Positions 8,052 to 64,000 of a DNA stretch of 64,000 bases are shown piece after piece. The notes beneath the pieces were generated by a model that saw nothing but the letters and a program-made list of their open reading frames with translations, had not been told where the DNA came from and searched no databases. The first letter of the stretch is position 1. Each line of letters opens with the position of its first letter. The translations under genes and the position numbers were made by a program. This DNA comes from Massalongia carnosa (taxonomy: Eukaryota), in NCBI GenBank assembly GCA_965645245.1, contig OZ287083.1, positions 1,054,001-1,118,000 of the forward strand, given 5' to 3'.

Positions 8052-10346
8052 ATGACTGTGCTGCGAGGCAAGCGGATTCAAAAGCGAAAATTGAATGATG
8101 GTGCTGCGAAGCCATTGGTAACCACCTCAACAGCTTTTTCCCCTCATGATCAGATCATTGAAGAGGAGCAAAGTTTCATGATGGTGCAGACGCTATTGCT
8201 CGTTTCGGTATGTCTTCCTCCTTGGTCTGAAGCATGCTCGCTGACAGTTCTCTGAACCGATAGGTCGCAGGTTTCGCTTGGTTACGGTCCGATTGATCTT
8301 ACAGCATCACCGACAGCGTGCCGCTAACTGAGCATAGAAATCTCTTTCCCGAAGGTTGTTACGATCTACGCAAAAATGCCGATATTTGTGCAGATGCTCG
8401 CTTCTTGTACCGCAAGACTCACTGCATAACCTCAGACTCTCATAGAAATAACAATATTGAACCAGAACAGCTGAACAAGCAATGGGCTCCAAGGGTATTG
8501 ATTCGAGGTAGAACCCAAGAAGCCGATAAATTGTTGGAATGGTTGGTTAGTGCTCAAGGGTTGCGAGAATCGATGGGGCCATAGCTGACCATCTACCATA
8601 GGACATTATTCTAGAAGGAATTCTGAATAAGAGCCTATCCAGGGTTTGCTTTAGTATATACACAGAGAAAGAAAACCCTTCACAAGCCCTTGAAACCTAT
8701 GATTTCTCAGTCCAATACCTCCAGGACGCTAGCGGCGGTAATCAGCAGATTGTAGGACTCGGTTTTTCTGGATGTTCTGGTGAACCATTAACTATGATGG
8801 ACACAAGATCGAAAATGAAGAAGATTATTAGGCAGTTAATGCAAATGGACAATCTTTTACCTGATCTACCAGGTTAGTTTCGCTGATGTCAGATTCTATC
8901 TCTAGTGGCTGACCAAGTGCATCTTCAAGAACGGCATTACCTGATATGCCATCTTTTCCAGCACAAAGATGCCCCACAAGGACATGTTTATAGAGGCTTT
9001 CATTCATGTGTACAGCAGCCTTCTGTATGTATGCAAGCCAGTGAATCATGGGATGTCGCGGACCTCGGTTCAATGAATTCACATTTCCACAAGTATGGCA
9101 CCTTTGCGAGCTTTGTGAGCCTCACTGATCGGTTTAGCGTTGCATTGCAAGTAGGATACTTGCCTCCGACAGCTGGTCCAAAGCCAAATCCAAAGCAAGC
9201 AATTCCCACTTTCCAAAACTCATTGCGCCACAGGTCTCCATTACAACATGAAGGCCTTGACTGGAGTCTTGGATCGCCCACCTCGGAACTAAATCCTGCG
9301 GGTGCTGGAGTGGAATATCTGAACGAATTTGATCGACAAGGGAGTGTATCTGTGGGAGAGCACGAAGACACTGAAAATAAAGGCCGACTGATGCCGAATG
9401 CTGCTATTCAGAAGGTGGGCTTATTGTTTTTTCCCCATGAACAACGGCTGATGAAGGTAGCTGAGCGAGGACCAAAGCCACCGCCGCAACAACTCTTTGA
9501 TACCAACTCAAGAGCTACCATCTAACGATCTGCAACAATCAAAGTCCTGCACGCTAGATCCTTTGATATTTAAGCTGCTAACCGTAAAAAGAGACGGCAT
9601 CTTGCAAAGCCTGGGTAGGATTTCATACAACATGGATAAAGTTGGCATCTGCTGTGAGTGCGAATTTAAGGAGAAGGAAGGAAGCATGGTAGGAGTTGAT
9701 ATTGTGGTATACTTTATACTTCTCCGGCGCATTACTAATCAGAACAATGCATAGGCGAAATGTGAGTGCTGCGATGGTTGGCAGCACAATCACTGCTATG
9801 GCTACAGCCTTAAGATTCCTTCAGAACAACACTTTTGTTATTCATGTCTCCTTATAGGATTCGACGAAAGACGTCTGGAGGAATTGAGGAGACTAGCCCG
9901 ATTCAGACGAGCGCTATGGGTCGCGTATGAACAGGGCTACCCAAGGTCGATGGATGCCTTTGCAAAGATGTTGGGTTCGTTTCACTGCTGCTTTGTGTAA
10001 GATATATAATGACTCACAGTTTAGGTTATGACGGAAAGGCGACAGCTGGCATTGTACACAGAATGAAAGAAGAGGGCTACCTGTCCATGGCCACAAAGAC
10101 CAGACTTCAGCTGGTGGACTCGCCAGAACAGACTATAACTAAAAACAGAGACTATTTTAATCCAATGACGCTGATTAAACAGTTTGTAAGTCTGAGAATA
10201 TGAGCGGAGATCAAGATGGTTTGTAGTAACAAATCCCCTAATTAAACCTGCAGTATACATCCTCGAACGGACGCAACATCTTGAGGACGGATTCTCCGAA
10301 GCCATCGCGAAAACGCACGAGACGCGACATGGGTGTTAATTCTTAA
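8052..10346 (+). CDS. HOP1: Meiotic axis protein Hop1-like (HORMA + PHD finger + C-terminal region)
   Basis: Spliced N-terminus EQSFMMVQTLLLVS|VAGFAWLR|NLFPEGCY...EADKLLEWL...SIYTEKENPSQALETYDF is HORMA-like. PHD finger ICCECEFKEKEGSM|AKCECCDGWQHNHCYGY...HFCYSCLL. Many short GT..AG introns; stop TAA at 10344-10346. Confidence 0.85.
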
Positions 10347-54024: not shown

Positions 54025-56937
54025 TCAATGCATCACGCTTTGCCTCCATCGATCAATCATGTCCCGCTGCTTAGGATTTAATTCCAGCGGTGCCTGTCCC
54101 AGCTGTAAGCCCGTCACATTATACGGCACAGGGGTGTTGTAGAGCATTGGGTTCGGGTATGGCCCCGCTCCCTCCATGGCATGGGCGTAGGGTAGGCCGA
54201 AGCTTGGGTGAACAGCTGCAGGGAGACTGGCGCGGTTCCTAGCAGGATCGAGCATGCCGAGCCGAGAGGCCATGGTGATGTACTTCGTCGAAGCCCGCTG
54301 CTGCTCCTGCGTCCATTGCGTCTGTTGCCCAACGACTGAAGCGCGGGCGCCAGCCGCGGGATGCACTTGTAGTAAATCAGCCATGCTGCGGCGGTTGGTG
54401 AGAGGAGGGCAGGAAGCGGGGACATCGCTGCTGACCCCGGCGGGTTTAGCATCACCCTCGGCTTGAAGGCGTTGGCGGCGCTGAGCCAGGGTTTCTTCTT
54501 CAAGATCCGGGGTTTCGGGAGGAGGGACAGTTGGTGCCGTGTTGGCAGGGTGGGTTGAATGAAGGCCACCGAAATGGCTCATAACCTCGCTGGCGAAATC
54601 TCCGCTGACAGGCCTCAGTGCTCCGGTGGAGCTTCGGTTACGGAGCCTCTCACGCCGTTGAGCCAAGGTTTCGCCCTCGATTTCGACGACATCTTCTTTT
54701 TCTTTGGCGTCCGTAAAGCCGGGAATGTTTAGGGTGTACATGCTTGCTCTTCGATCTGGACTTGCGTTTCGCCGGACCGGATCTTCGCCTCGAAGTCTGG
54801 CACGCCGATGGCTCAATGGCTCGTTATCCTCCATCTCGCGCCTTGCTATCAACCCAAGCGGTCTGTCCTCGTCGAGGCGGTTAACATTCAACCTACCTCG
54901 GGGAAACAACATCCCCAAAGGCACGTCGTCATGGTCCTGGTTCTCAATGCCAGGAGGTTGCGCGTTATCGTCTTCCCAGGCAAGCTTGACATGCTTCTGC
55001 TTTCTCGACTGCCGCTGTACATGTGCAACGGCGTCGAGCTCGAGCAACGTTGACTGCATGCCATCAGGAAATGCAGTTGCTGCAGTGCGGTTTCGCTGCT
55101 TTTGCTGCTGCTTCCGAAGCTGTAATTCTGCAAGGAGAGTTGTGGGTTGGCCGCTGTACTGATCATGTTCGCCATTCTCTCCGTATTCGTTATCGACTTC
55201 AAACTCTTCTGGTGCGTCATGATATTCAATATCGTCCTCCGGCACAGCACCCCTAGCCTGAGATGAAAGTTCATCATCAAGGTGGTGGAGGGGGGTCTCT
55301 TCGCTGTGTAGGCTTGCTGCACCAGCCTCATCAAGGTTGATTGTGTCACCAACAAGCCGTCCACTACTCTTTCTTTTCCCTAGCTGTGCACCGAAACTTA
55401 GCACAGTACTGTTCCGAGTCTTGAGGCCGTCCAATAGTTCCGAAGCGCTGTTTCTTTTCTTGAGTAGATTGACAGAGTTTCGTTTACGGTCGCCCGCCTG
55501 CTCGACTGAGGCGTTGGCGGGCTTGAACCTGGGGGCTGGTTTGCTATATATTTCGGCGCCCACATGCCCCACGATTGGATGATCGGTGAATGCACTGACT
55601 GGAGCAAATGCCGAAGCATCAAGGATGCTATCCAAGGTTTCAACGGCCGACTCTCCTTTAACTTCGATGTTTTGTCGAGCAGCCGGATAATCGAAAAAAA
55701 CGCTAGCCCGAAGCTGAGGTGGTAGATCGTTCATGGTTCGGCGGTTGTTGTTTCGCAATTTTGATGGTAGACCTTCTTCCGTACGTTGAGGCTGGTCGTG
55801 CTCTTGAAATATGTCGGGTAACCATGCGGCTGATTTGCGCGCATGCACGGGGAGGCCACTAAGAATTTCCGATCGTCTCTTGTCTCTCTGCGGAACCGAT
55901 GGGATTTTTGACAATCGTTGCGGTAGGTTTAGCATCATCGGCACAGGAGCTGGATAGTAGACCAGCTTCTCGTGTGGAGGCTCCACGAATGGTTCTGCCC
56001 TATCCAAGAACCCTTGGCTGTTGGGCGTTGCATCATTATTGCCGCTGTCTTGGGTCTCCAAGGAACGGGTTGCATGAGGCTCGATGTGGACCCCGTCGAA
56101 GTCGTTGAAAAGTCCGTTCGCCTGCTGGCTTGTAGCAGTCGATGCGGCAGTAGCAGGACGGTCCAACGTACCGTCCGCAGATTCTGGCGGTCTGCGTGGC
56201 GATATGTTGAGTGGACGTGGTATCTCCACATCCTCTAGGCCGTCCTCGTTGTTCCTGATCCGTAGAACTTTGGGTGAAGGCTCCGGTGGAGGCACACCGG
56301 GTATAAAGCTTTCTGCACCCTTGGACTCTAGGGGCCTGGCTTCTTGCTCGGACATGGCTAATTGTGCTAGACGGGACCCTTGAGATGCCGACCTTCCCTT
56401 GGTCGAGTGCTGTGACCACCCTGAACGGATGGAGCTTCTGGGAGATGCAAAGTAGGCCGAGGGAGAGAAGCCGCCTGATCTGGCGACATTGTTCGTACTG
56501 ATAATGGAGTCCGAGGCATGGGAACCGTAGCCGTGAGAGGTATGCCGATTGGTAGTGGCCAAATGATCACGGTCCTCAACTTGGCCTAGGGCTGAAGAGG
56601 CTCGACTTTCCGACCTCCGCTGCTCTAGTATTATTTTCCTCAGCTCTTCACCAATGTCCGACGACATGCTCAGTCGCTCTGCACTTTGCTCCAACCTTTC
56701 CACATTCCTTACGTAAGCTCCTTGTAACGACTGCAGGTCTGGTGTTGGGTGGCGCAGCAGCATTGATGCTGATCCTTCCCGAGACCTTATCCCGGATTGT
56801 GAAGGGTGTGGCACGCGACCAGGACTGAACCGCCGGGACGCCAGATTATGATCATATTGCTGAGGAGACAAAGGGGGTGAATCCAACAGATAGGGCGAGG
56901 CATCATGGTCGCACTGAGCGACAGCATTGTAAGCCAT
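54025..56937 (-). CDS. Conserved hypothetical fungal protein (970 aa, single exon)
   Basis: Long ORF with conserved-looking blocks (LRHPTPDLQSLQGAY, YYPAPVPMMLNLPQRLSK, LPPQLRASVFFD, PTTLLAELQLRK, repeated ETLAQRR.RL, MIDRWRQSV); no named domain recognised. Confidence 0.85.
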   Translation of the reverse strand: MAYNAVAQCDHDASPYLLDSPPLSPQQYDHNLASRRFSPGRVPHPSQSGIRSREGSASMLLRHPTPDLQSLQGAYVRNVERLEQSAERLSMSSDIGEELRKIILEQRRSESRASSALGQVEDRDHLATTNRHTSHGYGSHASDSIISTNNVARSGGFSPSAYFASPRSSIRSGWSQHSTKGRSASQGSRLAQLAMSEQEARPLESKGAESFIPGVPPPEPSPKVLRIRNNEDGLEDVEIPRPLNISPRRPPESADGTLDRPATAASTATSQQANGLFNDFDGVHIEPHATRSLETQDSGNNDATPNSQGFLDRAEPFVEPPHEKLVYYPAPVPMMLNLPQRLSKIPSVPQRDKRRSEILSGLPVHARKSAAWLPDIFQEHDQPQRTEEGLPSKLRNNNRRTMNDLPPQLRASVFFDYPAARQNIEVKGESAVETLDSILDASAFAPVSAFTDHPIVGHVGAEIYSKPAPRFKPANASVEQAGDRKRNSVNLLKKRNSASELLDGLKTRNSTVLSFGAQLGKRKSSGRLVGDTINLDEAGAASLHSEETPLHHLDDELSSQARGAVPEDDIEYHDAPEEFEVDNEYGENGEHDQYSGQPTTLLAELQLRKQQQKQRNRTAATAFPDGMQSTLLELDAVAHVQRQSRKQKHVKLAWEDDNAQPPGIENQDHDDVPLGMLFPRGRLNVNRLDEDRPLGLIARREMEDNEPLSHRRARLRGEDPVRRNASPDRRASMYTLNIPGFTDAKEKEDVVEIEGETLAQRRERLRNRSSTGALRPVSGDFASEVMSHFGGLHSTHPANTAPTVPPPETPDLEEETLAQRRQRLQAEGDAKPAGVSSDVPASCPPLTNRRSMADLLQVHPAAGARASVVGQQTQWTQEQQRASTKYITMASRLGMLDPARNRASLPAAVHPSFGLPYAHAMEGAGPYPNPMLYNTPVPYNVTGLQLGQAPLELNPKQRDMIDRWRQSVMH

Positions 56938-57704: not shown

Positions 57705-59960
57705 ATGCCGCGTTTCAGTACGGGAGGATCTGACACTGAAGGGGAATCTTCAGACTCTGACCATAGGCGTAAACGCCGGAAGATGGGACAAAATGGTGAA
57801 GCCAATGGCGCTGCTACTCCGCCACCAGCAAACCCGAATTCGTTTGCAGCTAAGATGATGGCGAAAATGGGTTACGTCGAGGGGCAAGGGCTTGGGGCAA
57901 CTGGTCGGGGAAGACTCGCCCCAATTCAGACGCAATTAAGGCCTCAAGGGGTGGGGTTGGGTGCTGTGCGGGAGAAGACCAAGCAGGCGAAGGAGGAGGA
58001 GAAGCGTGAAGCCGCATTTCGAGGAGAGGCGTTGGAGGACTCCGGAGAAGAGGAGAAGAATAGGCGGCGAAAGCTGAAAGAGAAGAGGCTTTCAGGAATC
58101 AAAAGTGGGGCTGGAACTCCGATAGCGAAACCAAAGGTCAAATATAGGACAGCGGTGGAAATTGAAGCAACGGCAGATGGGCTGGAGGTTCCAAACGTTC
58201 TTAAATCCATTATAGATGCAACTGGGCAAGAGACAAAGCTATTAACATCGACGGCGGGCCTCATGGCACTGCAAACCGCCATGGTCCCTAGTGAGACAGA
58301 GGCGACGAAGATCGCTCGCAGAGCCCGTAGAGATTTAGAGGCATTTGCAGATGAGTGGAATGGATTGACCGAGCGGAAAACATATTTTGCGTTGCAAGAG
58401 ACGCAGCTGGTCCAAGAGCTCGATGAGGAGGATCAGGCAGCTCGAGATTTGCAAGACCTAATCCATACTACCCAGGATTTGCAAGACTTGATTCTCGATC
58501 CACCAACTCCAAACGCCTCATCCTCTACCTGGGAAGACATCACCGTGAAATTAGAGTCCATGGAATACGGTCTTCACGATGGCATTAATCCAGCTACTTT
58601 GCATGAAGTTGCCGTGGCCACGATACACCCTCTGTTCAAAATATCCATGCAAGACTGGGAGCCCCTCCAAGATCCAGCGAGCGTCGTCGCCTGGATCGAG
58701 CGACTTCGGGGGGTTTTGCAACTTCAACCAGAGCCCAACAAGAACGAGGTTGCTCTGCGGCAGGATAATCATCATCCCAAGCCTTTCACTAAGTCAACTA
58801 CACCCTATGAGACCATGATATACTCTCTCTGGCTCCCCCCCGTCAGATCAGCTATCACCAACGATTGGGACGTCCACGACCCCACGCCCCTCATCACCCT
58901 TGTTCAGACGTGGCGAGCCGTTCTTCCACCCTTTGTTCTCTCCAACGTCATCGATCAGCTCATCGTTCGACGCCTCTCCGACGCTCTTGCAGCATGGAAA
59001 CCTCGAGCCCATCACAAGCGAAACCGTCACAACCAGTCTCCCCATATCTGGTTATTCCCTTGGCTCCAATATCTTGATGATCGTCACACCGATCCCACAG
59101 GCCCTACTGGTCTTCTCACCGAAGTGAAACTAAAATTTAAAACCGTGCTCTCGTCTTGGGACCTCACGACTGGCATTCCCCCTGGACTCGAATCCTGGCG
59201 CGCAGTCCTTCACTCTGAGTTATCCTCTGTCCTCATCCGTTACCTCCTTCCTCGCCTCGCCTTGCATCTCTCCGAAAATCTCCTCATCGACCCCTCAGAC
59301 CAGGAAATGGAACCTCTTACTCAAGCGCTCCAATGGAATCCCTTTTTCGCCTCCAGCACGATAGCCCACTTGCTAGCTGCCGAGTTCTTCCCCAAATGGC
59401 ATCAAACCCTCCACCTGTGGCTAACGTCCTCCCCCAACTACGACGAGATTCGCGAATGGTTCCTCTGGTGGAAAGAGCAGCTCAATTGTCTCGTGCCCAA
59501 CGTTAACGAAGTTCCCGTTATCGCAACCGAGTGGACCAAAGGCCTAGAGACCATATCATTAGCTCTCGACCTTGGCCCAGAAGCAGCATCGCAACTGCCG
59601 CCTCCACCCGCCGGCCCAGCCCTGCCCATGGCCGCCTCTTCTGCCCCGTCCTCCACCTCCGCCAGACCCACCGCTGTCCCCGCGGTTCTGGAAACCCCAA
59701 CCACCTTCCGGGATGTCGTCGAAGACTGGTGCGCCGAGCAAGGGCTGATCATGATGCCCCTCCGTGAAGCAGACCAACAGACCGGTCTTCCGCTGTTCCG
59801 GATCACGGCGAGCGCAAGCGGTAGAGGTGGGGTGGTGGTTTATCTCAAGGGCGACGTGGTGTGGGCTCGTGCCATTACTGCGATCGTTGGCGCGGACGGG
59901 AAGGGCTTCGTTCCTCTAGGGCTTGATGAGGGATTGGCGGCTAGGGCGGAGGGCCGATGA
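57705..59960 (+). CDS. SPP382: G-patch spliceosome disassembly factor TFIP11/Spp382 (Ntr1)
   Basis: G-patch FAAKMMAKMGYVEGQGLGATGRGRLAPI...GLG, a GCFC-like region (WLFPWL, FFPKWHQTLHLWL..PNYDEIREWFLWWK), and C-terminal TFRDVVEDWC. Confidence 0.92.
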   Translation: MPRFSTGGSDTEGESSDSDHRRKRRKMGQNGEANGAATPPPANPNSFAAKMMAKMGYVEGQGLGATGRGRLAPIQTQLRPQGVGLGAVREKTKQAKEEEKREAAFRGEALEDSGEEEKNRRRKLKEKRLSGIKSGAGTPIAKPKVKYRTAVEIEATADGLEVPNVLKSIIDATGQETKLLTSTAGLMALQTAMVPSETEATKIARRARRDLEAFADEWNGLTERKTYFALQETQLVQELDEEDQAARDLQDLIHTTQDLQDLILDPPTPNASSSTWEDITVKLESMEYGLHDGINPATLHEVAVATIHPLFKISMQDWEPLQDPASVVAWIERLRGVLQLQPEPNKNEVALRQDNHHPKPFTKSTTPYETMIYSLWLPPVRSAITNDWDVHDPTPLITLVQTWRAVLPPFVLSNVIDQLIVRRLSDALAAWKPRAHHKRNRHNQSPHIWLFPWLQYLDDRHTDPTGPTGLLTEVKLKFKTVLSSWDLTTGIPPGLESWRAVLHSELSSVLIRYLLPRLALHLSENLLIDPSDQEMEPLTQALQWNPFFASSTIAHLLAAEFFPKWHQTLHLWLTSSPNYDEIREWFLWWKEQLNCLVPNVNEVPVIATEWTKGLETISLALDLGPEAASQLPPPPAGPALPMAASSAPSSTSARPTAVPAVLETPTTFRDVVEDWCAEQGLIMMPLREADQQTGLPLFRITASASGRGGVVVYLKGDVVWARAITAIVGADGKGFVPLGLDEGLAARAEGR

Positions 59961-61311
59961 TGGATTGCGGGGGTGTTCAAGGACGATTGGATGGAGTTTT
60001 GGGTGTCTGCACGGCTTGGAGATGTGGGATTTACTGCACGGAGTAACTTGTACTACTAAACAGTCCAAGGTCCAGGGATTGGTCCATGCATGCATGAAAA
60101 ATCGTCTGCAGAGTTTTACGCGAATTTGGAAAGACGGCTCGTTGGGGATTTAGATTTCTTTTTGATGAACGATGAGCTGTACTCGTCGTTACGTATCTCG
60201 CGATCTAAATACGAAACGTGGTTGGAAAATCGTTACGATCGTTTAAAAAATTTTTTTTGAGATGATGCCTGAATTAGATATAATTTTTCCCCCCATTTTC
60301 ATGGAATATGAAAAAAATCAAGTCAATCAGTCAATCAACAGGATATTATTCTTTCACAACCGTGCTGAGTAGGTGGATCTCTGGTCCCATGAGCTATCAC
60401 TAGGTGGTAGAGTAGATAGTAGAAAGTAGACGGATTGCATATAGGGACTTCCCCCTTAACGAACCGATAACCAACGAGCTCGTAGGGTACCTGAGCGATC
60501 CTCTTTGTTAATCTCTCACTTCGTTAGGCTTCGTATTTTTCGCAGCTTAGGACCGCCCTAGGAACGGAACACTCCTTTCTCTCTCTCTCTTTCTTTCCTT
60601 CTTTCTTCCATGGCTTTCTTTTGATGTTTTGTGAGGTTGAGATTATGGCTGCGTGGTTGAGTATGCATGCGTAGTAGTAGCAAGCAGCAGCAGTGCGTGT
60701 GCTGATTGATGGTAAAAGGATGAGAGGAGTCTGAGGATAGTATGTGGAGAGTCTAGAATGGGAATGGAGGAAGAAGAAAAAAAGGGGGGGGTTGAGAATG
60801 GAGATGCGGGTGAGGGTGGTGGAAAAATAGAGTTTGGAATCAAAGTGGAAATGATAATTGGTATATAAAAAGGGGGCTTCAAAGGAAAGGGGGGATATTG
60901 CTAAAGAACTGGTACATTAGAGGCTCTTTCCTTTTTGGTGTAAAGCTGTAAATCCTGATGGGTGGCTCCTTCCGTTTTCGTGGTTTTTGCAAGTGGTACG
61001 GGCGGCTGCTTGGTAAACAAGGTGATCAACAGACTTCGTCTTCCTTTTTCATCCCAACCCCAACCACAAGCTTCACAACCACAAGCAAAGCAATTCAAAC
61101 CTTTGAGTTACCTTGCCTTTGCATCAAGATCAGCTTTATTTGGAACTGTGATAGAACCCAAAGACATTGCTTTTAACCATCAAAAACTACCACCATATTG
61201 ATTGTATTGCAAGACTTCATCCTGAACAGACGCAGCTTTTTGGAGCGGCCCTTGCATGCAAGTTATTCGATCAATTCAGTATTAACATAACCACTTTGTA
61301 ATTCGCCCAGT

Positions 61312-62951
61312 ATGATCGGCTATCGCGATCTCCTCTCTCCTCCGACGCTAACAGAGCCAGCAACAGCGACCATAATGGATCGCTCCAACACACTTGGAAC
61401 ACGCGTAGATGATCTCATGAAGCCGCTTTCCTTACCCAAAAATATGGGTTTGCGTGAGACTGAGGAAGTGAGATTCCCTTTCGCTTCCTCCAAGGGTATG
61501 TTTGTTGACAATTGAGATAGCAAATATCAAAGTTGCTCAAGGAAAACTTTGGCTTGAAGCTTGAGATATATCATCGTCGCGCGACGGAACAACCGATTGA
61601 CGGAGTGGTCAAGCTCCTCATCACAAAGCTCATAAAAATAAGAGCTAAGGCTCTTATGGTGGATCAGGATAACCAGGCCTTGAAGGAGACTAATAAAGCT
61701 CTCCTTTTAGAAATAGGAAAGTGCGATGCTGCTGTGCAGGAAGCTACCAGCATAATCTGCGACCTGGAGGAGGTAATCAACCAGAAGTCAAACGAGTTGG
61801 CCGAGATAGTCCACACAGCAGCTATAAAACCAAACTGCCAGGCTTGCCAAGACCGCGCTGATCCTCCAGAGTCAAGTTCACAGTCAGGGACTCTTGTATC
61901 AACATCCAAAACCCAGTCAGGCGAGAGCTCCGAACAGAGATTGCCTCAGCCGATAACGGGTGACCGTTTTCTGTCAAGAGACAAGGTTATGAAGGAAGTC
62001 ACTACCCAAAGACCATTGAAACAAAGTGCTCTCCCGACAAGTCGTAACCCCAAACCAAGTCATTACCGGCCCTCACGCATAGCGCGCCCAAGCTTAGTTA
62101 GAGGAGCCGAGCGGAGATATAGCAGATATCTGATAGCAAGAGACTCGTCAAACTATCCCTACCTAACACGCATACCACGACCATGTGCGTCCAAGGGAAC
62201 AGAAAGGAGATATAACAGATGTTTGATGGCAAGAGACCTATCATACTGTTCTCGCCTAACATACAAACCGCGATCAAATGCGCCCAATGCAACAAAAAGA
62301 TATGGCAGATATTTGACAGCAAGAGATCTGTCAAACTATCCTCGCTTGACACGCATACCGCGACCAAGTGCACTCAAGGGAGTAGAAAGGAGATATAGCA
62401 GATGTTTGATAGCAAGAGGCCCATCAAACTGTTCTCGCCTAACACACAAACCGCGACCAAGTGCGCTCGATGCAACAGAAAGAAGATATAGCAGATGTTT
62501 GATAACAAGAGATCTGTCAAAATGTCGCCGTCTAACATGCAAATCGCAACCAAGTGCGCTCAAGGAAACAGAAAAGAGATATAGCAGATGTTTGATAGCA
62601 AGTGACTTATCAAACTGTTCCCGCCTAACACGCAAACTGCAACCAAATGCGCTCAAGGAAGTAGAAAGGAGATATAACAGATGTTTGATGCCAAGAGATT
62701 CATCAAATTGTCCCCGTCTAACATGCAAATCGCGACCAAGTGCGCTCAAGGAAACAGAAAAGAGATATGAAGGATGTTTGATAGCAAGAGACTCATCAAA
62801 CTGTCCCCGCCTGACACGCAAACCGCGACTAAGTGCGCCCAATGGAGCAGAAAGGAGGTATCGTGGACTCTCAACAAGATCGAGCGGCAGATTGCAAGAG
62901 GATCCTCCTGCTGAGAATCCCTCAGATTCTCCCCATTACAAATGCCTATAG
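61312..62951 (+). CDS. Centrosomin N-terminal motif 1 (CM1/Cnn_1N) coiled-coil protein with a C-terminal 31-aa tandem-repeat array
   Basis: Splicing a short GTGAGA..TAG intron after about 61467 gives MGLRETEE|QISKLLKENFGLKLEIYHRR, matching the CM1 consensus L+E.E..I..L.KENF.LKL+I. Coiled coil follows (KCDAAVQEATSIICDLEE), then the repeats. Confidence 0.75.
62112..62861 (+). repeat. Coding tandem repeat, eight 93-bp units (one is 90 bp) plus partial flanking units
   Basis: AGATAT/AGGTAT anchors at 62115, 62208, 62298, 62391, 62484, 62577, 62670, 62763 and 62856; consensus peptide RRYSRCLIARDLSNCPRLTRKPRPSALKETE. Confidence 0.95.
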
Positions 62952-63753: not shown

Positions 63754-64000
63754 ATGCCTTCAATGTATCTGTCTCAGATCCGGAAATGGTTTCTTCAGTC
63801 CCCCCCAGTGGAATGGGGTATCCAGCAGCTCCGTGAGCTCCTCATTGGTGCGTTACGTCAGGGTCCTATGCCGCAACATGTAGCGTTCGTGATGGACGGC
63901 AACCGGCGGTTTGCGCGGAATCACAGAATAGAGACCGTGGAAGGTCATAACCTTGGTTTCGAAGCTCTTGCCAAAGTGAGCTTTGTCTTCCGCACCTTAC
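63754..64000 (+). CDS. RER2: cis-prenyltransferase / dehydrodolichyl diphosphate synthase, exon 1 (partial; not in the ORF track)
   Basis: 63754-63975 reads MPSMYLSQ...LRQGPMPQHVAFVMDGNRRFAR...VEGHNLGFEALAK, then a GTGAGC donor at 63976. HVAFVMDGNRRFA is the cis-IPPS signature. Confidence 0.9.
   Translation, partial: MPSMYLSQIRKWFLQSPPVEWGIQQLRELLIGALRQGPMPQHVAFVMDGNRRFARNHRIETVEGHNLGFEALAKVSFVFRTL

What the first reader, a model, noticed from the sequence alone, without database searches (positions are those of the whole stretch)
61312..62951. CM1 (gamma-tubulin-recruiting) domain fused to eight basic 31-aa Cys/Tyr repeats, each with a dibasic site
Seen: a CM1 motif and short coiled coil followed by eight tandem 93-bp units. 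The units differ by many substitutions, yet the frame stays open and the only indel is an in-frame 3-nt loss, which suggests selection on the peptide. Each unit is Arg/Lys-rich, carries two Cys (or Tyr) and starts at RR/KR. Established: CM1 in Mto1/ApsB/centrosomin recruits gamma-tubulin complexes, and I know of no such repeat array in those proteins. Inference A: a lineage-specific nucleator with a basic microtubule- or nucleic-acid-binding tail; the 31-aa period equals tau/MAP2 repeats, but there is no sequence similarity. Inference B: a Kex2-type repeat peptide precursor, less likely because there is no signal peptide. Inference C: a truncated paralog with a recent minisatellite expansion.
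Basis: partly seen in the sequence, partly recalled or inferred. Interest (0 to 1): 0.75.

Follow-up and report, generated by a model that had tools for sequence, protein, structure and literature searches.

The report
Truncated CM1 gene carrying a minisatellite tail
A lichen-associated fungus carries a fast-evolving, shortened copy of a conserved microtubule-nucleation (CM1) gene whose last third is a 93-base tandem repeat that stays in frame but shows no sign of selection on the peptide it encodes.

Summary
A two-exon gene (61312-62951, +, 528 aa) encodes a CM1 motif, a coiled coil, then eight 93-bp units plus a degenerate ninth.

- pN/pS among units is 0.94 (CI 0.57-1.94), the highest of all six frames.
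- Basic and Cys residues are kept no better than in neutral simulations.
- Neutral simulations keep the frame open in 8.5-14% of runs.
- All 6 array SNPs against a second strain are non-synonymous.

The gene is not a paralog. It lies beside the same G-patch/GCFC gene as members of a widespread, unnamed Pezizomycotina CM1-only family, and it shares a phase-0 intron inside CM1 with some of them.

It evolves about twice as fast as its orthologs. It keeps 22 of 30 conserved CM1/coil columns but has lost the family's conserved tail motifs. The repeat unit may descend from the family's own C-terminal basic motif (post-hoc test).

Most likely the CM1 module is still coding and the array is a tolerated polybasic, probably disordered appendage. 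No RNA data were available, and no genome is held to look for a second copy.

Interest is low to moderate; this is a new variant of a known kind.

The parts
61312..61467 (+). Exon 1, 52 codons from the ATG. Its last ~12 codons encode the first part of the CM1 motif.
   Evidence: Translation. Adding exon 1 raises the score against the family CM1+coil HMM from 69.1 to 88.4 bits. Codon-usage score is +0.193, typical of coding sequence in this window.
61468..61520 (+). Intron, 53 nt, phase 0, GTGAGA...ATAG, lying inside the CM1 motif.
   Evidence: Sequence. Read-through of exon 1 into the intron gives no Pfam hit and only 3.7 bits against the family HMM. The syntenic ortholog L019 has a 52-nt phase-0 intron with the same GTGAGA donor at the same motif position, 10256-10307. 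By an HMM proxy, 21 of 80 family loci are split at this point.
61521..62951 (+). Exon 2, 476 codons plus TAG stop at 62949-62951.
   Evidence: The frame is intact in a second strain (run X4): 8 SNPs in the CDS, none creating a stop, and no indel.
61432..61580 (+). CM1 core (…MGLRETEE | QISKLLKENFGLKLEIYHRR), interrupted by the intron.
   Evidence: Pfam Cnn_1N on exon 2. The family profile aligns this segment with the CDK5RAP2 CM1 construct 8rx1_G, E 0.025. The window keeps 22 of 30 columns that are >=90% conserved in the family's CM1+coil.
61602..61856 (+). Coiled-coil helix with an 11-14-residue insertion relative to most orthologs (not L075).
   Evidence: AlphaFold2 single-sequence model: helix over residues 28-112 of exon 2, with pLDDT 75-94 over residues ~31-100. 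Alignments.
61857..62111 (+). Ser/Thr/Gln-rich linker with a weak remnant of the family 'R-x-P-S-F-L' motif, followed by a partial pre-array unit.
   Evidence: Alignment to the family: P242, F244 and L255 kept. HMMER alignments of P0009 and P0011 reach residues 216-242 of exon 2.
62112..62852 (+). Eight tandem 93-bp units (unit 2 is 90 bp), each encoding 31 aa, polybasic, with Cys or Tyr at positions 6 and 15.
   Evidence: Contig depth in run X1 is like the flanks (439.8 against 419.9 and 418.2), apart from a higher depth on a short stretch shared between units, so the array looks single-locus.
62853..62951 (+). Degenerate ninth unit, short acidic/Pro-rich C-terminus, and stop.

Best explanation
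The locus is the positional ortholog, in a lichen-associated ascomycete, of a widespread but unnamed Pezizomycotina family. That family has a CM1 motif, one short coiled coil, and a long disordered tail carrying conserved short motifs.

In this lineage the gene has evolved roughly twice as fast as its orthologs. It has lost the family's N-terminal motif and its conserved tail motifs, leaving 528 aa against the usual 700-1000.

Its 3' third is a 93-bp coding minisatellite of eight units plus a degenerate ninth. It looks as if it grew partly by two-unit block duplications and may have been seeded by the family's own C-terminal basic motif.

Shown: anatomy, orthology, acceleration, loss of the tail motifs, and the neutral-looking substitution pattern of the units.

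Inferred:
- The CM1 plus coiled-coil module is still translated and, as a dimer, can still dock on gamma-tubulin complexes.
- The array is carried along in frame as a polybasic (about +41 net charge), probably disordered appendage.
- Its exact sequence, charge and Cys content are not under detectable selection, so it is tolerated rather than a selected domain.
For: Orthology:
- 15 of 80 family loci fetched from metagenome contigs carry a homolog of the window's G-patch/GCFC gene (57705-59960) within the fetched flank. 11 of these also carry the 970-aa neighbour.
- The 15 fall into about 7 distinct arrangements, because several loci are near-identical copies.
- L019 has the same order and orientation as the window.
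- L019 also shares the phase-0 intron and its GTGAGA donor.

Acceleration:
- G-patch/GCFC protein identity between the window and L004/L008/L012/L019 is 55-60%, the same range as among those loci (51-59%).
- CM1+coil identity is 39-44% for the window against 65-72% among those loci.

The N-terminal part is still coding:
- Codon-usage scores are +0.167 and +0.193, against a coding mean of 0.186 (sd 0.078), and the other five frames are negative.
- 22 of 30 conserved CM1/coil columns are kept.
- The spliced protein scores 88.4 bits against the family HMM.

Tail loss:
- The conserved motifs SPRLS-x-LSESSF and LPPTPDTMST are absent from the ORF and from the DNA on either side.

The array looks neutral:
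- pN/pS is 0.94, CI 0.57-1.94, the highest of six frames.
- K+R is 60 against a simulated 63.8±3.6; Cys is 15 against 14.8±2.4.
- The array's codon-usage score is -0.19 and its GC3 is 0.34, against 0.50-0.57 elsewhere.
- 6 of 6 array SNPs against strain X4 are non-synonymous.
- None of the 80 family loci has a tandem array inside its CM1 gene.

Origin of the unit:
- An HMM of the orthologs' C-terminal motif (S-R-P-P-I-A-R … H-A-R-I-P-R-P-S-S-L-Y) hits the units. Only 4 of 2000 block shuffles reach the best-domain score. This test was chosen post hoc.

Growth of the array:
- Units 2/4 and 5/7 are each 89% identical, which suggests growth by two-unit blocks.
Against: - No expression data. No listed run is on record as RNA, so translation of any part is inferred.
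- The units show about 93 substitutions from the consensus but only one indel, and it is in frame. The non-coding flanks show 1 indel against 2 SNPs between strains. The lack of frameshifts may therefore reflect selection to keep the frame. The numbers are small and substitutions are transition-biased (78:15).
- An open frame in only 8.5-14% of neutral simulations is mildly unusual.
- If the unit truly descends from a conserved family motif, its multiplication could be functional multivalency.
- The array's low codon-usage score rests on effectively one 31-codon unit, so it is only about 1.7 sd low on my rough estimate.
- The strain comparison has only 8 coding SNPs.
- No whole genome is held, so a second, canonical copy cannot be ruled in or out.
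Confidence: 0.6

Rival explanations
1. The array is a selected functional module. It would be a multivalent polybasic tail that re-targets a CM1 nucleation activator, for example to the acidic microtubule lattice, to nucleic acid, or to a partner that recognises the family's C-terminal basic motif, now present in 8-9 copies.
For: - The frame is intact over 8 diverged units with a single in-frame indel.
- The ORF is intact in a second strain.
- The unit resembles a conserved C-terminal motif of the orthologs (4 of 2000 shuffles).
- Column 1 of the unit is always R or K despite five different codons.
- AlphaFold2 places a short helix on the E-R-R-Y-x-R-C-L-I-A-R segment of several units, at very low confidence.
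Against: - pN/pS is 0.94, the highest of six frames.
- Basic residues, net charge and Cys are not preserved beyond neutral simulation; net charge is 41 against a simulated 48.6±4.8.
- 6 of 6 array SNPs are non-synonymous, including Y316C, L425P and R485H.
- The best-conserved third of the unit holds only two C's, and C>T/G>A changes dominate, so low mutability could explain its conservation.
- No homologous array was found in 1.84 billion representative proteins or in the 80 family loci.
Confidence: 0.17
2. The whole gene is a dying relic, unexpressed or non-functional, and its ORF is still open by chance. A canonical copy elsewhere, or other CM1 proteins, would cover the function.
For: - All conserved tail motifs and the N-terminal motif are lost.
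- CM1/coil divergence is doubled.
- Coding SNPs are 7 non-synonymous to 1 synonymous. SNP density in the CDS (8 per 1587 nt) is not lower than in the flanks (2 per ~814 nt).
- GC of the N-terminal part is 0.486, nearer the intergenic 0.43-0.47 than the neighbouring genes' 0.55.
Against: - The ORF is 528 codons with intact GT..AG splice sites.
- The roughly 250 non-repeat codons have a normal coding codon-usage score, and all five other frames are negative.
- Conserved CM1 columns are kept (22 of 30) far better than overall identity of about 40%.
- By my rough estimate (inference, not computed), that much neutral change would be expected to introduce several stops.
Confidence: 0.18
3. The units are IQ-like calmodulin or light-chain binding helices, so the protein would be a CM1 protein with a calmodulin-binding array, loosely like ASPM or the calmodulin-binding end of Spc110.
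For: The one database hit to the array is P0020, a 331-aa metagenomic protein (E 5.2e-5). P0020 carries true IQ motifs (Pfam IQ, E 2.1e-12) with the same 31-aa period. Windows of 1.4 units score z 2.7-9 against it.
Against: - Pfam IQ gives no hit on the window protein at E<=1.
- The unit lacks the I-Q and the R-G of the IQ consensus (consensus recalled, not from a call).
- The similarity is an 11-residue stretch counted once per unit because both arrays have period 31. This inflates both the E-value and my shuffle z-scores.
- Sequence evolution looks neutral.
Confidence: 0.03
4. The gene is a Kex2-processed repeat-peptide precursor.
For: Every unit begins with RR or KR.
Against: - There is no hydrophobic N-terminal signal-like stretch in the protein printed. 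No signal-peptide predictor was run.
- The N-terminus is a cytoplasmic-type CM1/coiled-coil module.
- The peptide shows no conservation beyond neutral expectation.
Confidence: 0.01

Closest known systems
Unnamed Pezizomycotina CM1-only family, annotated 'hypothetical' or 'Centrosomin N-terminal motif 1 domain-containing protein'. Examples are P0009 (Geoglossum umbratile KAI9777597.1), P0077 (Letharia columbiana) and P0153 (Botrytis cinerea).
   Same: - The CM1+coil module scores 88.4 bits against the family HMM.
- It lies next to the G-patch/GCFC gene.
- The phase-0 intron inside CM1 is shared with L019, and with 21 of 80 loci by proxy.
- A remnant of the R-x-P-S-F-L linker motif is present.
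   Different: - 528 aa against 700-1060 aa.
- It lacks the N-terminal L-L-Q-x-x-L-R-E-K-K-A motif and the tail motifs SPRLS-x-LSESSF and LPPTPDTMST.
- CM1/coil identity is 39-44%, against 65-72% among orthologs at the same species distance.
- It has an 11-14-residue insertion in the coil relative to most orthologs.
- It carries a 93-bp array seen in none of the 80 loci.
Mto1 / ApsB / Spc72, the fungal CM1-MASC gamma-tubulin complex receptors (classes as described in passages of PMC4034690 read).
   Same: N-terminal CM1 motif followed by coiled coil, and no SPM or PACT. It is expected to work the same way at the CM1 end, by docking on gamma-tubulin complexes.
   Different: No C-terminal targeting domain was detected: Cnn_1N is the only Pfam family for the window protein and for the family members scanned. 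I could not obtain an ApsB sequence, so whether the unnamed family is related to ApsB beyond CM1 is untested.
CDK5RAP2 / centrosomin (CM1-CM2 type).
   Same: The family profile aligns with the CDK5RAP2 CM1 construct in PDB 8rx1_G (E 0.025). The window keeps the K-E-N-F-x-L-K-L-x-I-Y core.
   Different: No CM2. A far shorter coiled coil. A repeat tail.
Intragenic coding minisatellites of fungal genes, such as cell-wall adhesin repeats (recalled, not from a call).
   Same: In-frame tandem units with a length divisible by three, growth by block duplication, and weak constraint on unit sequence.
   Different: Here the host is a cytoskeletal CM1 gene, not a secreted wall protein. Copy number did not differ between the two strains compared.
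tau/MAP2 31-32-aa microtubule-binding repeats.
   Same: The period (31 aa) and the basic character.
   Different: No sequence similarity: Cnn_1N is the only Pfam family reported at E<=1. The shared period is most likely a coincidence.

Membership tests
CM1 (Pfam Cnn_1N, PF07989) gamma-tubulin complex receptors | Cnn_1N HMM match at or above the gathering score (28.5 bits) | tested here: inconclusive
   Exon 2 alone scores 23.1 bits, E 8.6e-5, matching profile positions 8-64 of 74. The missing positions are encoded in exon 1. The spliced protein could not be submitted to the Pfam tool. Against my own family HMM, splicing adds 19 bits.
CM1 (Pfam Cnn_1N, PF07989) gamma-tubulin complex receptors | Conserved CM1 core residues (K-E/Q-N-F-x-L-K-L-x-I/V-Y/F) | tested here: met
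   K, N, F, L, K, L, E, H, R, R are all kept. 22 of 30 columns that are >=90% conserved in CM1+coil are identical. The family profile aligns this segment with the CDK5RAP2 CM1 in 8rx1_G.
CM1 (Pfam Cnn_1N, PF07989) gamma-tubulin complex receptors | Physical binding to gamma-TuSC or gamma-TuRC | not testable with these tools
   Needs pull-down or co-localisation.
CM1-MASC / SPM-CM1-PACT / CM1-CM2 classes (PMC4034690, passages read) | A C-terminal MTOC-targeting domain (MASC, PACT or CM2) | tested here: not met
   Cnn_1N is the only Pfam family at E<=1. The tail is the repeat array. MASC may be poorly modelled in Pfam, so this is a weak negative.
Unnamed Pezizomycotina CM1-only family (alignment A1) | CM1 plus the E-L-E-K-R-D-x-A-V-x-E-A-V-x-x-I-C-D-L-E coil signature | tested here: met
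   88.4 bits, E 5e-29 against three sequences. The representative search gave 52 hits at E<=1e-3, of which 51 align to this module and one (P0020) to the array.
Unnamed Pezizomycotina CM1-only family (alignment A1) | Genomic position next to the G-patch/GCFC gene | tested here: met
   15 of 80 loci, about 7 distinct arrangements. L019 has the same order and orientation.
Unnamed Pezizomycotina CM1-only family (alignment A1) | Conserved tail motifs (R-x-P-S-F-L…L-R-S-L-Y; SPRLS-x-LSESSF; LPPTPDTMST) and the N-terminal L-L-Q…R-E-K-K-A motif | tested here: not met
   Only a weak remnant of the first motif is present; the others are absent or gapped. No remnants were found in the flanking DNA. An apparent upstream remnant scored no better than 587 of 1000 shuffles.
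tau/MAP2 tubulin-binding repeats | Pfam tubulin-binding repeat match | tested here: not met
   No family other than Cnn_1N at E<=1.
IQ calmodulin-binding motif arrays | Pfam IQ (PF00612) match / I-Q-x-x-x-R-G-x-x-x-R | tested here: not met
   No IQ hit at E<=1. The similarity to IQ protein P0020 is confined to about 11 residues per unit.
Kex2-processed repeat peptide precursors | N-terminal signal peptide | tested here: not met
   By inspection of the N-terminus printed: polar and Pro-rich, with no hydrophobic core. No dedicated predictor was available.

The most novel reading that the evidence does not exclude
The array is an amplified copy of the family's own C-terminal basic docking motif. 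In this lineage a CM1 nucleation activator would have been stripped to 'CM1 dimer plus 8-9 docking motifs'. That would make a multivalent scaffold concentrating gamma-tubulin complexes on whatever the ancestral motif binds, or on the microtubule lattice itself. Constraint would act only on frame and bulk properties, so pN/pS would not reveal it.
Probability: 0.12. Interest if true: 0.65.

Novelty: new variant of a known kind. Interest (0 to 1): 0.3.

Why it matters
The repeat tail is probably a lineage-specific curiosity: a coding minisatellite tolerated in the remains of a disordered tail.

Two things give the locus some value:
- It points to a large, conserved and apparently unstudied Pezizomycotina CM1-only family: 619 proteins at E<=1e-5 among the 8000 candidates scored. 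These proteins have conserved short motifs, no recognised targeting domain, and a conserved position beside a splicing-factor gene.
- The window gene is a natural 'minimal' allele of that family, with CM1 and coil kept and the tail motifs gone. It could help separate what the CM1 module does from what the tail does.

My three relevant full-text searches found no paper on this family. That does not show that none exists.

Tried and rejected
- Whole-genome search for other CM1 loci: no genome is held for this window, so a second copy is untested.
- RNA evidence: no RNA holder is listed among the 7 runs. The four runs laid were contigs with no joint across the intron. This says nothing about expression.
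- Word-index homolog searches with exon 2: none found at near lengths, and none for residues 1-110 among longer proteins.
- ESM Atlas search on the tail gave no usable hit.
- phmmer of exon 2 against PDB gave no hit at E<=1.
- RIP as the source of the transition bias is rejected. The array has TpA/ApT 0.65 and (CpA+TpG)/(ApC+GpT) 1.48, and only 7 of 29 C>T changes are at CpA.
- An upstream in-frame remnant of the family N-terminal motif (61204-61287, cut by TAA at 61288) was suggested by tblastn. It is not supported: the family N-terminal HMM scores -4.4 bits, and 587 of 1000 shuffles do as well.
- An HMM built from the eight units and searched against family proteins did no better than shuffled decoys: best real score 0.4 bits, best shuffle 5.1.
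- Smith-Waterman of the pre-array region against family tails gave only z 2-3, though the hits fell repeatedly at 80-90% of protein length.
- The reverse test, a family-motif HMM against the window tail, gave 4 of 2000 shuffles for the best domain but 1049 of 2000 for the whole-sequence score. The origin of the unit therefore remains a lead.
- An antisense ORF (62336-62935, 199 aa) has pN/pS 0.77 and a codon score of 0.054. There is no evidence it is a gene.
- Alternative introns using the GTATGT donor just downstream of the chosen one would, by my count on the sequence, be only about 23-35 nt long. I rejected them as too short.
- Relation of the family to ApsB: the paper I wanted is not held, and one search returned only irrelevant hits.
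- Earlier findings of this scan: none for this genome or for these words.
Full report
**What is there**

Between 61312 and 62951 on the + strand lies a two-exon gene.
- Exon 1 is 61312-61467, 52 codons from an ATG.
- The intron is 61468-61520, 53 nt, phase 0, GTGAGA…ATAG.
- Exon 2 is 61521-62951, 476 codons plus TAG.
- The product is 528 aa.

The intron sits inside the CM1 motif. Removing it joins …MGLRETEE to QISKLLKENFGLKLEIYHRR.
- Pfam Cnn_1N matches exon 2 alone at 23.1 bits (E 8.6e-5, profile positions 8-64 of 74), below the 28.5-bit cut-off. Read-through of exon 1 into the intron gives nothing.
- Against an HMM I built from the CM1+coil region of 24 family members, the spliced protein scores 88.4 bits, exon 2 alone 69.1, and the read-through 3.7. 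I could not hand the spliced protein to the Pfam tool.
- AlphaFold2, run without an alignment, gives one long helix over residues 28-112 of exon 2, with pLDDT 75-94 over about 31-100. Everything after residue 112, array included, has pLDDT 22-44. With a single sequence this is consistent with disorder but does not prove it.

**The array**

Tandem Repeats Finder reports 62113-62861, period 93, 8.1 copies, 77% matches. It is the only array scoring 80 or more in the window.
- In frame there are eight units from 62112 to 62852 and a degenerate ninth from 62853.
- Unit 2 lacks its last codon. This is the only length difference.
- Units are 72-89% identical. Units 2/4 and 5/7 are the closest pairs (89%), and units 1 and 3 share Tyr at positions 6 and 15 and Ile at position 21. 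This suggests growth by two-unit blocks.
- Every unit starts RR or KR and has Cys or Tyr at positions 6 and 15. The eight units hold 60 K+R and 19 D+E.
- Contig depth in run X1 over the array (439.8) matches the flanks (419.9 and 418.2), so it looks single-locus. A short stretch shared between units has about twice that depth.

**Is the peptide under selection?**

I found no sign of it.
- Pooled pN/pS among units is 0.94, with a bootstrap 95% CI of 0.57-1.94 over codon columns.
- The annotated frame has the highest ratio of the six frames; the others are 0.52-0.77.
- Variable columns by codon position are 17/18/13.
- Substitutions from the consensus are 78 transitions to 15 transversions, and 54 of the 93 are C>T or G>A.
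- The best-conserved third of the unit (7 of 8 copies within 3 mismatches of a 29-mer) holds only two C's. Low mutability under that spectrum could explain its conservation, third codon positions included.
- RIP indices are not met.
- Neutral simulations from the consensus, with the observed number of changes, keep the frame open in 13.6% of runs (simple transition/transversion model) or 8.5% (observed spectrum).
- In the stop-free simulations, K+R (63.8±3.6 against 60 observed), net charge (48.6±4.8 against 41), Cys (14.8±2.4 against 15) and Pro (19.6±2.8 against 19) are all as high as or higher than observed.
- The array's codon-usage score in frame is -0.19 and its GC3 is 0.34. The rest of the gene scores +0.17 and +0.19, and 29 coding chunks of the window have mean 0.186, sd 0.078, minimum 0.073. 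Because one 31-codon unit is sampled eight times, this is weaker than it looks.

**A second strain**

Of the 7 runs listed, 5 hold the stretch or a part of it, and none is on record as RNA. I laid four of them.
- X1 and X3 are identical to the window.
- X4, labelled a lichen metagenome, differs at 10 SNPs and one 1-nt deletion over 2401 bases. Its contig breaks inside the array fall at the same places as in X1, so array structure is the same.
- Eight SNPs lie in the CDS: 1 synonymous and 7 non-synonymous. All 6 in the array are non-synonymous: S304A, Y316C, N324K, I380T, L425P and R485H.
- None creates a stop, and the deletion (63020) is outside the CDS.
- SNP density in the CDS is not lower than in the flanks. 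The numbers are small.
- X5 is near-identical but fragmentary.

**What the gene is related to**

- A word-index search with exon 2 found nothing.
- A full HMMER scan of 1.84 billion representative proteins found 52 hits at E<=1e-3, the best at 4.4e-9. Of these, 51 align to the CM1/coil part. One (P0020) aligns to the array.
- The 51 belong to one family of ascomycete proteins in which Cnn_1N is the only Pfam domain; full-length members are about 700-1060 aa.
- A profile of 24 members (A1) retrieves 619 proteins at E<=1e-5 among 8000 candidates scored.
- Sources name lichen-forming fungi (Letharia, Usnea, Lecanora, Gyalolechia, Stereocaulon and others), Leotiomycetes (Botrytis, Sclerotinia), Dothideomycetes and Geoglossum.
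- Every named entry among the 120 listed is 'hypothetical' or 'Centrosomin N-terminal motif 1 domain-containing protein'.
- Conserved family features are an N-terminal L-L-Q…R-E-K-K-A motif, CM1, a coil ending E-L-E-K-R-D-x-A-V-x-E-A-V-x-x-I-C-D-L-E, and tail motifs R-x-P-S-F-L…L-R-S-L-Y, SPRLS-x-LSESSF and LPPTPDTMST.
- The family profile aligns with the CDK5RAP2 CM1 construct in PDB 8rx1_G at E 0.025.

**Ortholog, not paralog**

I fetched 80 family loci from metagenome contigs.
- 15 of the 80 carry a homolog of the window's upstream G-patch/GCFC gene (57705-59960; Pfam) within the fetched flank. 11 also carry the 970-aa gene at 54028-56937.
- Several loci are near-identical copies, so these are about 7 distinct arrangements.
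- L019 has the window's exact order and orientation.
- In L012-L015 the CM1 gene is inverted relative to the pair.
- Most of the other 65 loci are short contigs or have other neighbours.
- The downstream cis-prenyltransferase gene (63754 onward) is found only in L010, on the other strand and about 8 kb away.
- L019 has a 52-nt phase-0 intron with the same GTGAGA donor at the same place in the motif.
- By an HMM proxy, 21 of 80 loci are split there, 57 are contiguous, and 2 are unclear. I inspected only L019 by eye.

**Accelerated and stripped**

- The G-patch/GCFC protein of the window is 55-60% identical to those of L004, L008, L012 and L019, the same range as among those four (51-59%). The CM1/coil segment is 39-44% identical for the window, against 65-72% among the four.
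- Even so, 22 of 30 columns that are >=90% conserved in CM1/coil are kept.
- The coil has an 11-14-residue insertion relative to most orthologs; L075 has one of similar size.
- Of the tail motifs only a weak trace of R-x-P-S-F-L remains. The others are absent from the ORF and from DNA on either side.
- An apparent upstream relic of the N-terminal motif did not survive a shuffle test.

**Where the unit may come from**

The syntenic orthologs share a C-terminal motif, S-R-P-P-I-A-R-x-x-S…H-A-R-I-P-R-P-S-S-L-Y-G, followed later by L-E-R-Y-S-S. The window's unit reads like these two pieces brought together.
- An HMM of that motif from six orthologs hits units 1, 3 and 4. Only 4 of 2000 block shuffles reach the best-domain score, but the whole-sequence score is unremarkable at 1049 of 2000.
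- The reverse test failed, and pairwise z-scores were 2-3.
- I chose the motif after seeing the resemblance, so this is a lead, not a result.
- None of the 80 loci has a tandem array inside its CM1 gene.

**Reading**

The non-repeat half looks like a gene still in use. It has a normal codon-usage signature with all five other frames negative, intact splice signals, and conserved CM1 columns kept far better than average.

By analogy with CM1 proteins it should dimerise through the coil and dock on gamma-tubulin complexes. The classes of CM1 proteins are described in passages of PMC4034690 that I read. This step is inferred, not shown.

The array is best read as a coding minisatellite carried in frame and evolving without detectable constraint on its peptide. 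One observation pulls the other way: there are no frameshifting indels among about 93 substitutions. This may mean the frame itself is kept.

I put 0.6 on this reading, about 0.17 on a selected repeat function, about 0.18 on a dying gene, and little on the IQ-like and Kex2 ideas.

**Limits**

- There are no expression data.
- No genome is held to check for a second copy.
- There are no close relatives for an ortholog-based omega.
- I could not establish how the unnamed family relates to ApsB.

Noticed in passing
Alignment A1; loci L001-L080; proteins P0003-P0169: A large Pezizomycotina family has CM1, one short coil and a long disordered tail with several near-invariant short motifs. Cnn_1N is its only Pfam domain. 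In at least 7 distinct arrangements it lies next to a G-patch/GCFC (TFIP11/Spp382-type) gene. All named members are 'hypothetical'. Three relevant literature searches found no study of it.
   Followed up: partly
P0020 (331 aa, metagenomic) against window 62112-62852: An unrelated protein with true IQ motifs has the same 31-aa period and an 11-residue similarity per unit to the array. This produced the only database hit to the repeats. It is probably a periodicity artefact.
   Followed up: partly
window 62097, 61026, 61131, 62900 (run X5): Low-depth contigs of run X5 run off into unrelated sequence at four places. At 62097 the loose end is the reverse complement of window 60838-60867. This could be chimeric library junctions or a rearranged allele.
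   Followed up: partly
window 62112-62852: Divergence among units is strongly transition-biased (78:15, mostly C>T and G>A) without the dinucleotide signature of RIP. The cause is unexplained.
   Followed up: partly
window 54028-56937 (-): A 970-aa ORF with no Pfam family at E<=0.001 is conserved (33-52% identity) and syntenic with the G-patch/GCFC gene in 11 of the 80 loci.
   Followed up: no
window 63754-64000 (+): Start of a cis-prenyltransferase gene (Pfam Prenyltransf, E 2.2e-6), cut by the window end. It is 80% identical to a stretch of L010.
   Followed up: no
L012-L014, 3393-4021: A 180-bp tandem repeat (3.5 copies) lies upstream of the CM1 ortholog in these loci. It is unrelated in sequence to the window's array.
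   Followed up: no
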